Below, piece after piece: positions 9,877 to 58,080 of a stretch of 64,000 bases of DNA. The notes below the pieces were generated by a model that ran no database searches, was not told the DNA's origin, and saw only the letters and a list, made by a program, of their open reading frames with translations. The position numbers and the translations under genes are program-made. How positions within the stretch are numbered: position 1 is the first letter of the stretch; each line of letters begins with the position of its first letter. Origin of the DNA: Octopus vulgaris (taxonomy: Eukaryota); assembly GCA_951406725.2 (NCBI GenBank), contig OX597838.1, positions 28,892,001 through 28,956,000 on the forward strand. Direction: 5' to 3'.

Positions 9877-9982
9877 ATCACCTGATGAGACACATCTACA
9901 CTGCTGGATGCTCCCGACCCAGCTGTTAAGAGTTCCACCCGTGAGGGATCGATTCTAGATGTGTCAAAGCAACTGTCGTGAT
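9877..9982 (+). ncRNA. degenerate type I hammerhead ribozyme motif (Penelope-type)
   Basis: ATCAC-CTGATGA-GACACATCTA...TAGATGTGTC-AAAGC(GAAAC mutated)-AACT-GTC-GTGAT. Confidence 0.55.
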
Positions 9983-10151
9983 TAAATAATGAATTCTCAT
10001 ATATTCGTCTTATATATTTCATTTACCATATATATACACTCACAACGCCCGGTCTGGGAATCGAAACCGCGATCCTACGACCATTGCGCCTCCACACACA
10101 CATTGATGATCCATGGTTGGAATCTATAAATATTTTAATGTTGTTACTGCA

Positions 10152-10558
10152 GGCGCAGGAGTGGCTGTGTGGTAAGTAGCTTGCTAATCAGCCACATGGT
10201 TCCGGGTTCAGTCCCACTGCGTGGAATCTTGGGCAAGTGTCTTCTGCTATAGCCTCGGCCCGACCAAAGCCTTGTGAGTGGATTTGGTAGACGGAAACTG
10301 AAAGAAGCCTGTCGTATATATATATCTATATATCTATATGTATGTGTGTGTGTGTTTGTGTGTCTGTGTTTGTCCCCCTAGCATTGCTTGACAACCGATG
10401 CTGGTGTGTTTACGTCCCCGTCACTTAGCGGTTCGGCAAAAGACACCGATAGAATAAGTACTGGGCTTACAAAGAATAAGTCCCGGGGTCGAGTTGCTCG
10501 ACAAAAGGCGGTGCTCCAGCATGGCCGCAGTCAAATGACTGAAACAAGTAAAGAGAGT
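10152..10558 (+). mobile_element. SINE family A, full length
   Basis: Near-identical to 3447-3876. Confidence 0.9.
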
Positions 10559-11076
10559 AAGTCGGTGCCATTAGGCCGCAGCCTTCACAATAAAATAAGA
10601 TCTTTTATAGGCGTACCCAGGAACATTTCCTGTAGACGAACTTAAAGGATATTGTGTATGTGTGTGCACGTGTGTGCGTGTGTGTGTGTGTGAGTGTCTT
10701 TGTGTCTGTGTTTGTCTCCCACTATTGTTTATATTCCCCGTAACTTAGCAGTTCAGCGCAAGAGACCAATAGAATAAGTACCAAGCTGAACAAAAAATAC
10801 TTTTTCCAGACGGTGCTCCAGCATGGACACAATCTAATGACCGAAACAAGTGAAAAACAAAATAATTATTTTTTAATTAATTTTAATTACGTAATTATCT
10901 TTCTATTACCTTTTAATTGAGTTGAATTTAATTTATTCCAATTTATTTATGTTATTTTCATTCTTATTTTTTTTTCTAATTAATTTTAATTTAAGTTTTT
11001 AATTTAAGTCTTAACTATGCAATTATCTTAAACATCAACCTTCAAATATTATTTTTCTAAGAAAAACAACCTCTTC

Positions 11077-11614
11077 TAAATAAAATATATTCCTTAGTAA
11101 ATAAGTTACTAATAAATAAAATATATTCCTTAGTAAATAAATTACTAATAAATAAAATATATTCCGTAGTAAATAATTTACTAATAAATAAAATATATTC
11201 CGTAGTAAATAATTTACTAATAAATAAAATATATTCTTTAGTAAATAATTTACTAATAAATAAAATATATTCCTTAGTAAATAATTTACTAATAAATAAA
11301 ATATATTCCTTAGTAAATAATTTACTAATAAATAAAATATATTCTTTAGTAAATAATTTACTAATAAATAAAATATATTCCGTAGTAAATAATTTACTAA
11401 TAAATAAAATATATTCTTTAGTAAATAATTTAATAATAAATAAAATATATTCCTTAGTAAATAATTTACTAATAAATAAAATATATTCCTTAGTAAATAA
11501 TTTACTAATAAATAAAATATATTCTTTAGTAAATAATTTACTAATAAATAAAATATATTCCTTAGTAAATAATTTACTAATAAATAAAATATATTCCTTA
11601 GTAAATAATTTACT
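11077..11614. repeat. 36-bp AT-rich minisatellite, about 15 copies
   Basis: Unit TAAATAAAATATATTCCTTAGTAAATAATTTACTAA; five periods span 11221 to 11401. Confidence 0.95.
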
Positions 11615-11718
11615 GATTATTTTCTTTCAGATTCTCATTAATTAACTTGTCATGGACTTAAAACCGATATTAGAGTCAACATTGTACTAATGTCATTAAA
11701 TAAAGAAAAAAAAAAGAA

Positions 11719-12047
11719 GGATCATTCCGTCGGTTGCGACGACGAGGGTCCCAGCTGATACGATCAACGTAACAGCTTGCTCGTGAAATTAACGTGCAAG
11801 TGGCTGAGCGCTCCACAGACACGTGTACCCTTAACACGTAGTTCTCGGGGAGATTCAGCGTGACACCAAGTGTGACATGGCCTGACCCTTTGAAATACAG
11901 GTACAACTCATTTTGGCCAGCTGAGTAGACCGAAGCAGCGTGAAATAAAGTGTCTTGCTCAAGGACACAACGCGCCGCCGGGAATTGAACTCACGACCTT
12001 ACCGATCATGAGCCGAATGCACCTGACTACTAAGCCACGCGCCTTCA
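11719..12047 (-). mobile_element. full-length CORE-type tRNA SINE (family D)
   Basis: Reverse complement: GGCGCGTGGCTTAGTAGT...GTGAGTTCAATTCCC, then GTTGTGTCCTTGAGCAAGACACTTT (CORE-like), then a distinct tail. Confidence 0.8.
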
Positions 12048-12265
12048 CAATGAAATATGGTGACCTAAATAATATAACTTATGAGCAGCTATAAATATTT
12101 TTACTTCGTCTATTATTTGTTGAAATCGAAAGCAGTTTTACACGGTGGGAACTTTCTGTCAATTAAATCTGCTAATAAGCACACCTACACCTCCTTTGGG
12201 GCAATAATGTTAAGTTTACTACTGTGTATTAGCTTTAGTTGTTTGATATTTCCCATTTCAGTGGC

Positions 12266-12383
12266 GGCGCAATGGCCCAGTGGTTAGGGCAGCGGATTCG
12301 CGGCCGGAGGATCGCGGTTTCGATTCCCAGACCTGGCGTTGCGTGTGTTTATTGAGCGAAAACACCTAAAAGCTCCACGAGGC
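12266..12383 (+). mobile_element. SINE family B head
   Basis: GGCGCAATGGCCCAGTGGTTAGGGCAGCGG...GGTTTCGATTCCC tRNA-like head plus body. Confidence 0.85.
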
Positions 12384-55411: not shown

Positions 55412-56084
55412 TAATATATATATATATATTTCTAGGTAAAGAGATAGATAGACAGACAGGTAGGTAGAAAGACAGAAATCGAAAGGAGGAGAGTGAGAAA
55501 GAAACAGTTCGGAGGAAAAGAGTGAGAAAGAGAGAGAGAGGAAGATAAATAGATAGATAGATAGATAAATAGGCAGGAGAGAGAGAAAGAGAAAACAAAG
55601 AAAAGAAAGAAAATATAATGACAAAAATGGACGCGAAAGAAAAGAAATGGGAAAATGAAAGCAGAAGTATAAGCAGACGACATTATGAATGACAGTAGAG
55701 AATTTTAGCTGCCATTAGACTCTGTGCCTACATCGTATCGATATGAGATTAAGACTAACGATAAGATAGATAGCTTTTGTAAGAAATTCTGGCGATAAAG
55801 AAGAACCAATTTATGTTGGAAATATTTCAGTGTTTTATGGGAAGCAACGCAAACAATAAACGAAAGTAATAGTTCTTGCTTCAGCACAACACACTATATA
55901 TTACTGGAGGTTATTTAACTAGAACACCGGAAGGAGATTGGTTGAATAGGATGTGACCGGAAATAACAGTGACCGTACACTGAAGTAGAATATGCCGCTT
56001 GAACATTATTGCCTTGTAGTAAGTTTATTGTCGACAGTATTGAAGGATGTTTTAAACTAGAATTCTTAATGTGAATAAAAACAC

Positions 56085-56268
56085 TATCTATCTATCTATC
56101 TATCTATCTATCTATCTATCTATCTATCTATCTATCTATCTATCTATCTATCTATCTATCTATCTATCTATCTATCTATCTATCTATCTATCTATCTATC
56201 TATCTCTCTCTCTCTCTATCTATCTATCTATCTATCTATCTATCTATCTATCTATCTATCTATCTATC
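56085..56268. repeat. (TATC)n
   Basis: Direct inspection. Confidence 0.95.
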
Positions 56269-56927
56269 GCTTAACCATTATGCTGACATAAATGCATACA
56301 TGTGAGTACTTGTGTGTATGTTCGTTTGAGTTTACAAACGAGAGAGAGGAAAAAATTCCGTTATACAAAAGCAAGCAATAAACATTTATTACATACCTGA
56401 AACTTCTCACTGTTATTACTCAGAGATCAATTTCAGCTCTATAATATAGAGTCAAAATTGGTCTCTGAGTAATAACATATATATATATATATATATATAT
56501 ATATATGTAAGCGGCAAGTGAAGTATAAATAACAAAAAAAAAAAAGACCCCAAATAACCAAAGTCCAAAGGACATTCACAGTTAATGTTATTAAACTGAC
56601 GCTTAAAGGAGGTAAAAAAGGTAATGATATAAAAGCATGCCGTTTCGGACATCGATCTTCGTCTGATACTAGAGGAGAATCCAAGGGAGATAAGGAAGAG
56701 AGGAAAGAAGATTTAAAAAAAAAGAGGGAAGAGAGTCGGGTAAAAAAACCAAGGTGGGTTAGGTTCACATGTGAATGTATGTATGTGGTCTACTATAGGC
56801 TTGGCCGACCCAAGCCTCGTGAGTGGGTTTGGTAGACGGAAACTGAAAGAAGCCCGTCGTGTATATATATAGTAGTAGTAACAGAAAAGAAGAATTTCGA
56901 TTATCCTCACGTGGTGAGTTGTAATGT

Positions 56928-57125
56928 ATATAAGATATTAAAAAAGGAAAATACGCACACTTACATAGTTTTAATATAATTTTTAATATATCAACCGGAT
57001 TCGCTATCGCTATTCATGATATTATGTTTCAATATCATGAATAGCGATAGCGAAACCGGTCGATATATTAAAAATTATATTAAAACAATGTAAGTGTGCC
57101 ATTTTTCCTTTTTTAATTTCTTATA
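56928..57125. mobile_element. fold-back element, probably Penelope-derived
   Basis: About 95-bp inverted arms centred near 57025, containing GCGATAGCGAAACCGGTC. Confidence 0.65.
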
Positions 57126-57157
57126 TATATATATATATATATATATATATATATATA

Positions 57158-57556
57158 GGCACAGGAGTGGCTGTGTGGTAAGTAGCTTGCTAACCAACCA
57201 CATGGTTCCGGGTTCAGTCCCACTGCGTGGCATCTTGGGCAAGTGTCTTCTGCTATAGCCCCAGACCGACCAATGCCTTGTGAGTGGATTTGGTAGACGG
57301 AAACTGAAAGAAGCCTGTCGTATATATGTATATATATATATGTATGTATGTGTTTGTCCCCCTAGCATTGCTTGACAACCGATGCTGGTGTGTATACGTC
57401 CCCGTCACTTAGCGGTTCGGCAAAAGAGACCGATAGAATAAGTACTGGGCTTACAAAGAATAAGTCCCGGGGTCGATTTGCTCGATTAAAGGCGGTGCTC
57501 CAGCATGGCCGCAGTCAAAATGACTGAAACAAGTAAAAGAGAAAGAGAAAAGAGAA
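57158..57556 (+). mobile_element. SINE family A, full length
   Basis: Matches family A. Confidence 0.9.
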
Positions 57557-57600
57557 TATATATATATATATATATATATATATATATATATATATATATA

Positions 57601-58080
57601 TTATATAAATAGGGTTCCGTAAAATAATTTCTTTACCACACACTGAACTTTTTAGAAATAGCAGCCAAAAATTTTAGCTATTTCTTCTACTGTAAGAAAA
57701 ATCTCCCAGACAATGCATACTCAAAAATAACTCACACAGATATAGAGGGAAAAATAACGAAAGATCACACCTATATAAGATTACCTGAGAACAGGCCCGT
57801 TTCTGGATTAGTTGATTATAAAGATCAACACTTCCTTCGTCAGCTCAAGGATTTCTCAGATTTGGATTTGAAAGTACTAAAAATCAAAACATACCCGTCT
57901 GGTACGAGTAATCCCAGACAAACCATATTAGACCGCCAGTATCAACGAATTCAAAAATACAAGTGAGGCCTCGCATTCGTTCCCCTCCACCCACGTGGGT
58001 TACAGAGTGATACATTTCTACAGAGAGAACTGTATTTAAAAATTTCAGGGAGAGATAATTACATTGTCAATAATATTGAC
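57601..58080 (-). mobile_element. Penelope-like non-autonomous element related to 16333-16820
   Basis: Colinear similarity (TATATAAA.AGGG...CTGAACT...TAGAAATAGCAGC...TTTGGA...CGTGGGTTA...GGGAGA.AATTA). Confidence 0.7.
57786..57847 (-). ncRNA. type I hammerhead ribozyme motif
   Basis: Reverse complement: TGAG-CTGACGA-AGGAAGTGTTGAT...ATCAACTAATCCA-GAAAC-GGGCCT-GTT-CTCA. Confidence 0.75.

What the first reader, a model, noticed from the sequence alone, without database searches (positions are those of the whole stretch)
9877..57847. At least seven intact-core type I hammerhead ribozyme motifs from different sequence families in 64 kb
Seen: CTGAnGA / stem II / GAAAC-palindrome-GTH with a closing stem I at 14501(+), 16523(-), 28379(-), 28752(-), 28909(-), 34058(+) and 57786(-), plus a decayed one at 9877(+). 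Stems differ in sequence but keep pairing. Homologous elements at 16.5 kb and 57.8 kb keep core and stem I while stems II and III diverge. One lies just downstream of a GIY-YIG relic. Known: Penelope-like elements carry such hammerheads, with palindromic stem III enabling dimer cleavage. Inference: about one self-cleaving motif per 9 kb suggests a very large, diverse ribozyme load, possibly including non-autonomous retrozyme-like RNAs.
Basis: partly seen in the sequence, partly recalled or inferred. Interest (0 to 1): 0.7.

Follow-up and report, generated by a model that had tools for sequence, protein, structure and literature searches.

The report
Penelope-type hammerhead ribozymes, many repeat families
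This stretch holds nine hammerhead motifs (predicted self-cutting RNAs, eight with a complete core), each inside a scattered copy of a genome-wide repeat, and they are likely the tail ends of Penelope-type jumping genes and their non-coding offshoots, a known kind; the stretch is about six times richer in them than the genome average, and cutting is untested.

Summary
The motifs are real and of a known kind. Five pass a strict type I descriptor, against 0.005 in shuffles. Each lies in a dispersed repeat family. Two families are tied to a GIY-YIG endonuclease, so they are truncated 3' ends of Penelope-like elements (PLEs). The related 16.5-kb and 57.8-kb elements are non-coding tandem units of 546 and about 564 bp: retrozyme-like, with two-armed insertions ending in TA repeats. 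'One per 9 kb' does not extrapolate. A systematic 1.2-Mb sample gives 16 strict motifs (13 per Mb, about 37,000 in the genome), against 78 per Mb here. That is a large load, roughly coral-like in density, and many copies are decaying. PLE hammerheads and animal retrozymes are published. I found no cephalopod report in print, but this scan has noted octopus retrozymes with Penelope footprints before, on other DNA. Cleavage and circular RNA are untested.

The parts
9877..9982 (+). Decayed type I hammerhead (GAAA changed to AAAG; 10-bp helix II; 5-bp helix I) at the 3' end of an old PLE family
   Evidence: Sequence. Other copies 79-85% identical. 20 of 29 loci found with this family's endonuclease region carry this motif downstream on the same strand.
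14500..14596 (+). Type I hammerhead; core intact; base of helix II mutated in this copy; palindrome ACACGTGT
   Evidence: Relaxed tier only. 7 of 11 best other copies pass the strict tier. No coding link found within 1.5 kb.
16333..16983 (-). Sense arm (1.17 units) of a young, non-coding 546-bp tandem element (retrozyme-like); 3' end at unit position 194, against a TA repeat
16522..16575 (-). Intact type I hammerhead of the 546-bp unit: 4-bp helix I, U-U at the base of helix II, palindrome ACGTACGT, predicted cut after 16527
   Evidence: Strict tier. Identical in the tandem array on contig C1.
16938..17131 (+). Inverted, 5'-truncated second arm of the same insertion; 3' end at unit position 292, against a TA repeat
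22901..22945 (-).
   Evidence: Strict tier. Young repeat family, 93-98% identical. 9 of 9 best other copies strict.
28379..28461 (-). Type I hammerhead; core intact; 9-bp helix II; first pair of helix I broken in this copy
   Evidence: Fails both tiers. Old family, 78-91% identical. 1 of 11 best other copies strict.
28751..28816 (-). Intact type I hammerhead, palindrome ACGATCGT, young family
   Evidence: Strict tier. 11 of 11 best other copies strict. 8 of 11 loci have an inverted second arm, 7 of them ending at +175.
28908..29003 (-). Type I hammerhead; core intact; G-U in place of the family's G-C at the base of helix II; a separate insertion from the 28811 element
   Evidence: Relaxed tier. 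8 of 14 best other copies strict. The 39 other best places match only this half of the 28700-29060 query.
33602..33895 (+). Broken GIY-YIG endonuclease of a PLE, with a Cys-rich linker (Neptune-like, inferred); joined to the 3' UTR, likely by a deletion of about 1.96 kb
   Evidence: PF01541 above cut-off. One copy on contig C5 holds both halves in order, 1.96 kb apart.
34058..34140 (+). Type I hammerhead; A-A at the base of helix II; palindrome weakened by two transitions
   Evidence: Strict tier. Old family, 76-91% identical. 1 of 11 best other copies strict.
57587..58075 (-). Sub-unit-length copy of a non-coding tandem element of about 564 bp, related to the 546-bp unit
57785..57848 (-). Type I hammerhead; A-A at the base of helix II; 10-nt palindrome; GUU site
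   Evidence: Strict tier. 8 of 11 best other copies strict.

Best explanation
Each of the nine motifs lies in a scattered copy of a genome-wide repeat, and they are likely the hammerheads carried at the 3' end (pseudo-LTR) of Penelope-like retroelements and of short non-coding elements derived from them, left as truncated copies in TA repeats. Shown: type I architecture, family membership, an endonuclease link for two families, tandem non-coding units for two more, and TA-flanked, often two-armed insertions. Inferred mechanism: the PLE protein nicks AT-rich DNA and starts reverse transcription at fixed sites 100-300 nt 3' of the hammerhead; copying usually stops early, so nearly every insertion keeps the hammerhead even when the ORF is lost. 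That would explain why motifs are common, diverse and mostly solitary. In tandem transcripts two motifs would pair through the helix III palindrome and cut as a double hammerhead; for the 546-bp family this would release unit-length RNA that could circularise and serve as template again. Solitary and decayed copies, which are most of those in this window, are probably passive.
For: Strict motifs: 5 in the window against 0.005 in shuffles; 16 in 1.2 Mb against 0 in 10 shuffles. All 9 motifs hit repeat families on many contigs. 20 of 29 endonuclease-bearing loci carry the 9882-type motif downstream, 17 of them 487-567 nt beyond the matched part. The 34063 motif and the PF01541 relic are co-linear in a second copy. 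15 of 20 strict motifs outside the window have a TA run within 400 nt downstream, against 26% of random places (P = 7e-6), and so do 8 of 9 window motifs with a slightly shorter run. In the 546-bp family, 7 of 8 loci are two-armed with one 3' end at unit position 194-205 and the other at 292-296, and 15 of 16 ends abut TA repeats. This matches the two reverse-transcription starts and 'tail' described for a PLE (PMC11167929). The double-hammerhead fold is 10 kcal/mol more stable than two monomer folds. The architecture (short helix I, long helix II, extra base after A9, palindrome) is that of PLE hammerheads (PMC4209133). A U-U at the base of helix II with a 2-bp helix III is seen in an axolotl motif that does cleave (PMC7229834).
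Against: No reverse transcriptase or endonuclease was linked to 5 of the 9 families (14505, 22940, 28456, 28811, 28998) within 1.5 kb, and no autonomous partner was found for the 546/564-bp units. No intact PLE ORF was recovered. The active folds lie 11 kcal/mol or more above the minimum-energy fold, and the catalytic palindrome register has probability 0.08. Published PLE hammerheads cleave poorly in vitro; in one PLE the hammerhead needed protein and was dispensable for insertion in vitro. Rfam hammerhead models did not match three motif regions. The cleanest array (11 identical units) lies between assembly gaps, so its length may be an artefact.
Confidence: 0.85

Rival explanations
1. The genome carries a self-cleaving motif about every 9 kb (about 300,000), an exceptional and largely active ribozyme load that shapes host transcripts.
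For: The window does hold 8 complete cores in 64 kb. The sample shows many families (17 clusters among 25 strict motifs). The descriptor misses decayed copies and other wirings.
Against: A systematic sample gives 13 strict motifs per Mb (95% CI 7.6-21.7), or about 20 per Mb with relaxed hits net of chance; 99 of 120 stretches had none; the flanks give 22 per Mb. In three old families only 1 of 11 best copies is intact. Most copies are solitary, and the motif is predicted to need a partner.
Confidence: 0.07
2. Most of these families are non-autonomous retrozymes or SINE-like elements in their own right, not truncated ends of coding PLEs.
For: The 546- and 564-bp units are complete non-coding tandems. 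Five further families showed no ORF in the best copies. Li et al. (bioRxiv 10.64898/2026.07.22.740005) describe many such families in vertebrates.
Against: Two families are linked to an endonuclease. The 14505 and 34063 families share non-coding 5' extensions of about 800 nt with no tandem period, as long 3' UTRs would. Flanks were limited to 1.5 kb. This rival differs from the main reading only in proportion.
Confidence: 0.3
3. The motifs are chance matches in AT-rich, repeat-rich DNA.
For: One relaxed hit in the window (24663) and several in the sample are spurious. No Rfam hammerhead match in three regions scanned.
Against: Shuffle controls; helices extending well beyond the descriptor (9-13 bp); core kept while helices change between two subfamilies 69% alike; fixed position behind the endonuclease.
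Confidence: 0.01

Closest known systems
Minimal type I hammerheads of metazoan Penelope-like elements (Cervera and de la Pena 2014, PMC4209133; abstract, results, discussion and methods read, supplement not seen)
   Same: Type I core, helix I of 4-5 bp, long helix II, often an unpaired base after A9, palindromic helix III; many divergent families per genome; mostly single motifs from truncated copies; inverted pairs; located behind a GIY-YIG ORF.
   Different: Helix II insertions here reach 67-78 nt. The palindrome is 6-10 nt (as in their Drosophila willistoni, rotifer, shrimp and mosquito variants), not absent. No cephalopod appears in the text I read.
Animal non-LTR retrozymes (Cervera and de la Pena 2020, PMC7229834, end of methods and first results sections read; Li, Clavereau and Pollet, bioRxiv 10.64898/2026.07.22.740005, abstract, most of results, and discussion read, supplements closed)
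   Same: The 546- and 564-bp units are non-coding, low-GC, head-to-tail repeats with one type I hammerhead each, and the 546-nt circle folds more stably than shuffles (z = -5.3). The 16570 motif has the architecture of axolotl HHR_Amex2. Li et al. already derive such elements from PLE pseudo-LTRs.
   Different: Units are longer than the 170-400 nt circles shown by northern blot, though within Li et al.'s 51-972 bp. The two-armed, TA-flanked insertions with two fixed 3' ends were not in the passages I read. Expression and circles are not shown here.
Poseidon PLE of Anolis (Frangieh et al. 2024, PMC11167929; abstract and main text read)
   Same: AT-rich targets; two internal reverse-transcription starts that leave a 'tail'; a hammerhead in the pseudo-LTR.
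   Different: The tail is about 98 nt in the 546-bp family against 30-40 bp. The element here is non-coding. The endonuclease relics have a Cys-rich linker (Neptune-like; Craig et al. PMC8557442, passages read).

Membership tests
Type I hammerhead ribozyme | Core CUGAnGA, GAAA and UH in type I order | tested here: met
   8 of 9 motifs; 9882 has two core changes
Type I hammerhead ribozyme | Helices I, II and III able to close the core | tested here: inconclusive
   5 of 9 window copies strict, 2 relaxed, 2 fail. Intact copies exist in every family (1 to 11 of the 9-14 best copies).
Type I hammerhead ribozyme | Match to an Rfam hammerhead model | tested here: not met
   None among the 150 of 506 rows shown for the window; none at E <= 10 in three focused scans. 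That Rfam models fit minimal PLE variants poorly is recalled, not tested.
Type I hammerhead ribozyme | Site-specific self-cleavage | not testable with these tools
   No assay; only folding energies
PLE-associated hammerheads | Lies in the 3' UTR / pseudo-LTR behind a GIY-YIG endonuclease | tested here: met
   For 2 of 9 families: 9882 (20 of 29 loci) and 34063
PLE-associated hammerheads | The same link for the other coding-candidate families (14505, 22940, 28456, 28811, 28998) | tested here: inconclusive
   No ORF within 1.5-kb flanks of the best copies; inverted second arms in the 28811 (8 of 11) and 28998 (4 of 14) families
PLE-associated hammerheads | Palindromic helix III permitting a double hammerhead | tested here: met
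   Self-duplex of -3.4 to -16.3 kcal/mol in 7 of 8 motifs computed, -1.8 for the mutated 34063 copy; double fold 10 kcal/mol better than two monomers for the 546-bp unit
PLE-associated hammerheads | Telomerase-like reverse transcriptase in the same ORF (clade assignment) | not tested
   No full ORF recovered; the Neptune-like label rests on the Cys-rich linker only
Animal non-LTR retrozymes (546/564-bp units) | Short non-coding head-to-tail repeat with one type I hammerhead per unit | tested here: met
   12 motifs at 546-bp spacing; further arrays 98-99% alike; longest stop-free frame about 80 codons; period of about 564 in the sister family
Animal non-LTR retrozymes (546/564-bp units) | Highly self-paired unit-length circle | tested here: met
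   -140.4 against -104.8 +/- 6.7 kcal/mol in 60 shuffles; prediction only
Animal non-LTR retrozymes (546/564-bp units) | Accumulates as circular and linear unit-length RNA | tested here: inconclusive
   Only assembled contigs of runs not on record as RNA were available; they cannot show strand, ends or circles

The most novel reading that the evidence does not exclude
This genome holds some 20,000-60,000 intact type I hammerheads in about 40 families. At least one of them, a 546-bp non-coding unit sampled in this window, is a currently mobile retrozyme: its tandem transcripts cut as double hammerheads, close into circles, and are reverse-transcribed by a Penelope protein from two fixed starts 98 nt apart into both ends of a TA-repeat break. 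That would give a natural record of the PLE insertion mechanism and a first cephalopod circular-RNA system.
Probability: 0.5. Interest if true: 0.5.

Novelty: new member of a known kind. Interest (0 to 1): 0.32.

Why it matters
The class is published: thousands of minimal hammerheads per animal genome from truncated PLEs, and retrozymes derived from them. What this adds is a measured load for a probable cephalopod genome (about 13 strict motifs per Mb), for which my searches found no report in print, and a young 546-bp family whose insertion ends are regular enough to test how PLE enzymes copy non-coding RNAs and whether the hammerhead is needed. It also corrects the headline: this window overstates the genome-wide density about sixfold.

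Tried and rejected
Rfam: the whole-window scan was swamped by microsatellite matches to miRNA models (150 of 506 rows shown, none a hammerhead), and three focused scans found no hammerhead family. The repeat finder and the ORF listing were dominated by microsatellites.

Expression: no RNA holder listed. Contigs of four runs guessed to be RNA cover the whole 546-bp unit, and two bridge its head-to-tail junction. Three of them laid nothing on a control stretch, 33130-34140, that a large unlabelled run did partly cover. Since RNA is only a guess and contigs cannot tell a circle from a tandem transcript or from DNA, I count this neither for nor against.

The three motifs at 28.4-29.0 kb as one composite or heterodimeric element: rejected. 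Other copies match one part only, and the palindromes do not cross-pair (-1.6 to +0.2 kcal/mol).

Candidates at 24663 (very common repeat, 20 hits in 1.44 Mb, no hammerhead fold), 44380 and 37530 (helix I absent, no other copy in the DNA held): rejected.

U3-A8 core variant: 4 strict hits against 0.4 in shuffles in the sample; not followed up. Type II, type III and non-circular orders: none in the window; split-core wiring was not tested.

My first impression, that the two palindromes pair in the catalytic register in the minimum-energy fold, was wrong: they pair out of register. The 310-codon frame of L045 did not hit GIY-YIG in Pfam; a sister copy, L047, shows the YIG motif.

Lunse et al. 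(PMC5785218) was not held and is known to me only through the review PMC6765202 (passages). Literature searches for a cephalopod report returned none. Two octopus repeat papers mention Penelope elements, with no occurrence of 'ribozyme' (PMC13282606, PMC8967140; passages). Subscription journals and supplements were not covered.
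Full report
Setting. The window is G000:C25:28892001-28956000 in a 2.8-Gb genome of 227 contigs. It is AT-rich, 16% microsatellite against 7% in a genome sample, and shows no obvious host exon among its long frames. That it is an octopus is my inference from genome size, about 30 large contigs and repeat make-up; earlier notes of this scan say the same. 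No call names the organism.

1. The observation. All eight listed motifs are present. Seven have the full core; 9882 has AAAG for GAAA. Four quick descriptors gave 2-5 hits against 0-0.1 in shuffles. I then fixed a two-tier descriptor (strict: helix I at least 4 bp, helix II at least 3 bp with an optional unpaired base on one or both sides, fully palindromic helix III of 2-10 nt) and used it unchanged everywhere. It was written after seeing these motifs, which favours the window. Result: 5 strict (16570, 22940, 28811, 34063, 57843) and 3 relaxed (14505, 28998, 24663) hits, against means of 0.005 and 0.11 in 200 shuffles. The 22940 motif is new. The 24663 hit is a false positive. 28456 fails because the first pair of helix I is broken.

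2. Each motif belongs to a repeat family. Searches of the own genome with each motif gave 214-2,417 first-look candidates (not copy numbers) and 40 scored places spread over many contigs. Alignments show that the defects of the window copies at 9882, 14505, 28456, 28998 and 34063 are decay: most other copies have the better-paired form at those positions. Among the best other copies, the strict tier was passed by 11 of 11 (28811), 9 of 9 (22940), 11 of 11 (16570; all from one array, so not independent), 8 of 11 (57843), 7 of 11 (14505), 8 of 14 (28998) and 1 of 11 each for 34063, 9882 and 28456. The young families are intact and the old ones (about 80% alike) are decaying, as expected of passive copies. 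The 16570 and 57843 elements are 69% alike over 508 columns, with identical core and helix I, a change on both sides at the base of helix II and a replaced palindrome. This points to selection on the fold in the active lineages (inference). So there are nine motifs in eight families.

3. Link to Penelope-like elements. The relic at 33602-33895 matches Pfam GIY-YIG and has a Cys-rich linker like that described for Neptune PLEs (Craig et al., PMC8557442, passages). None of the 11 best copies of the 34063 family had it within 1.5 kb, which first argued against a link. However, the best other match to the relic lies 2 kb upstream of one of those very copies, and the fetched stretch shows both halves in order, 1.96 kb apart. 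The window copy therefore likely has an internal deletion. One more of 14 relic-like loci has the motif downstream within its flank. For the 9882 family, four of 11 best copies extend into an endonuclease; searching from the protein side, 20 of 29 loci carry the motif downstream on the same strand, 17 of them 487-567 nt away. No coding link was found for 14505, 22940, 28456, 28811 or 28998, but the 28811 and 28998 families show PLE-type inverted second arms (8 of 11 and 4 of 14 loci). Strict motifs outside the window are followed by a TA run within 400 nt in 15 of 20 cases, against 26% at random.

4. Retrozyme-like units. The 16570 family is 98-100% identical across the genome. On C1 twelve motifs stand at exactly 546-bp spacing with 11 identical units; this array lies between assembly gaps, but arrays elsewhere (for example five full units on C5, 98.7-99.3% alike) are embedded in ordinary DNA. 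The unit has no frame over about 80 codons, 33% GC, and folds as a circle at z = -5.3. Seven of eight loci examined, the window included, are two-armed: two 5'-truncated arms head to head, one ending at unit position 194-205 and the other at 292-296; 15 of 16 ends abut TA repeats. The 57843 family has a period of about 564 bp. I found no autonomous partner.

5. Density. I fetched 120 stretches of 10 kb at fixed steps over 29 contigs. They held 16 strict and 12 relaxed motifs, against 0 and 3.4 in 10 shuffles; 99 of 120 stretches had none; three strict hits belong to one insertion. That is 13.3 per Mb (95% CI 7.6-21.7), or about 37,000 (21,000-61,000) in 2.8 Gb by my arithmetic. The 180 kb flanking the window gave 4 (22 per Mb) and the window 5 (78 per Mb; P = 0.002 under the genome rate). 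TA runs per 10 kb are 21 here, 12 in the flanks and 10 in the sample. The window is a local high, partly explained by TA targets and partly by having been picked for this feature. The 25 strict motifs fall into 17 clusters; 12 singletons and 3 pairs give a Chao1 estimate of about 40 families (my arithmetic). Published counts, with other descriptors: over 6,000 in the coral Acropora millepora and 126,247 in the axolotl, about 9,000 in Xenopus tropicalis. With the coral genome at about 0.45 Gb (recalled), the density here is about the coral's. It is high but not without precedent.

6. How it likely works. Shown: architecture, families, endonuclease link for two, tandem units for two, TA-flanked ends. 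From the literature: a PLE protein nicks AT-rich DNA on both strands and starts reverse transcription at two internal sites, leaving a 'tail'; its hammerhead needed the protein and was dispensable for insertion in vitro (PMC11167929); PLE hammerheads cleave weakly and as dimers (PMC4209133; review PMC6765202). Inferred: the motif sits 100-300 nt from the start of copying, so it survives truncation in nearly every insertion. In tandem transcripts the palindromes would pair into a double hammerhead, which is computed to be 10 kcal/mol better than two monomers but 11 kcal/mol above the minimum-energy fold, with a catalytic-register probability of 0.08. Cutting would therefore be slow or need help. 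The two arm ends 98 nt apart would be the two starts. Confidence: origin 0.85; the 546-bp family cutting and circularising in vivo about 0.5; solitary window copies cutting host transcripts to a degree that matters, about 0.1.

7. Novelty. PLE hammerheads in 'massive' numbers (2014), animal retrozymes (2020) and their derivation from PLE pseudo-LTRs (Li et al. 2026 preprint) are in print. Five searches found no cephalopod report; a 2026 repeat annotation of an octopus lists 31 recently active Penelope-like families and does not mention ribozymes. Supplements were not seen and could list such motifs. This scan has already noted octopus retrozymes with two-armed Penelope footprints on other DNA (20 notes; AI notes, not support); none matched this 546-bp unit by sequence or place. 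Verdict: real, a new member of a known kind, interest 0.32.

Noticed in passing
L151:6200-7450 and L204:3286: Another two-armed tandem family with a 486-bp spacing, an 8-bp helix I and a 12-nt palindrome
   Followed up: no
L144:7100-7170 (+): Hammerhead parts in the non-circular order cut site, GAAA, CUGAnGA, with all three short helices pairing; one of 8 non-type-I hits in 1.38 Mb against 0-1 in four shuffles. It resembles the rewired hammerheads in earlier notes of this scan; the other hits look loose.
   Followed up: partly
L123:5804, L179:2580, L160:859, L209:816, L303:8111: True minimal hammerheads with only CG between GAAA and UH; several have a U at the cut position
   Followed up: no
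window 24200-25060: Very common repeat with AAT tails, in partial tandem, that keeps both hammerhead core words but does not fold as one; 20 hits in 1.44 Mb
   Followed up: partly
window 44310-44400 (-): Both core words and a near-palindrome but no helix I; no other copy in the DNA held
   Followed up: partly
window 40970-41824 (+): 3' fragment of a LINE ORF2 with a zf-RVT domain
   Followed up: partly
window 28379-29003 (-): Three unrelated hammerhead elements lie head to tail within 620 bases, separated by TA runs, as if each inserted into the TA flank of another
   Followed up: partly
L106:6579-8271 (-): Broken PLE-like reverse transcriptase / endonuclease frames next to a 546-bp insertion; no Pfam hit for the one frame scanned
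   Followed up: no
window about 27970-28070: A run of 100 N (assembly gap) close to the triple cluster
   Followed up: no
L241-L269: Many copies of the 9882 family have C instead of U at core position 4, which suggests an older subfamily with a variant core
   Followed up: no
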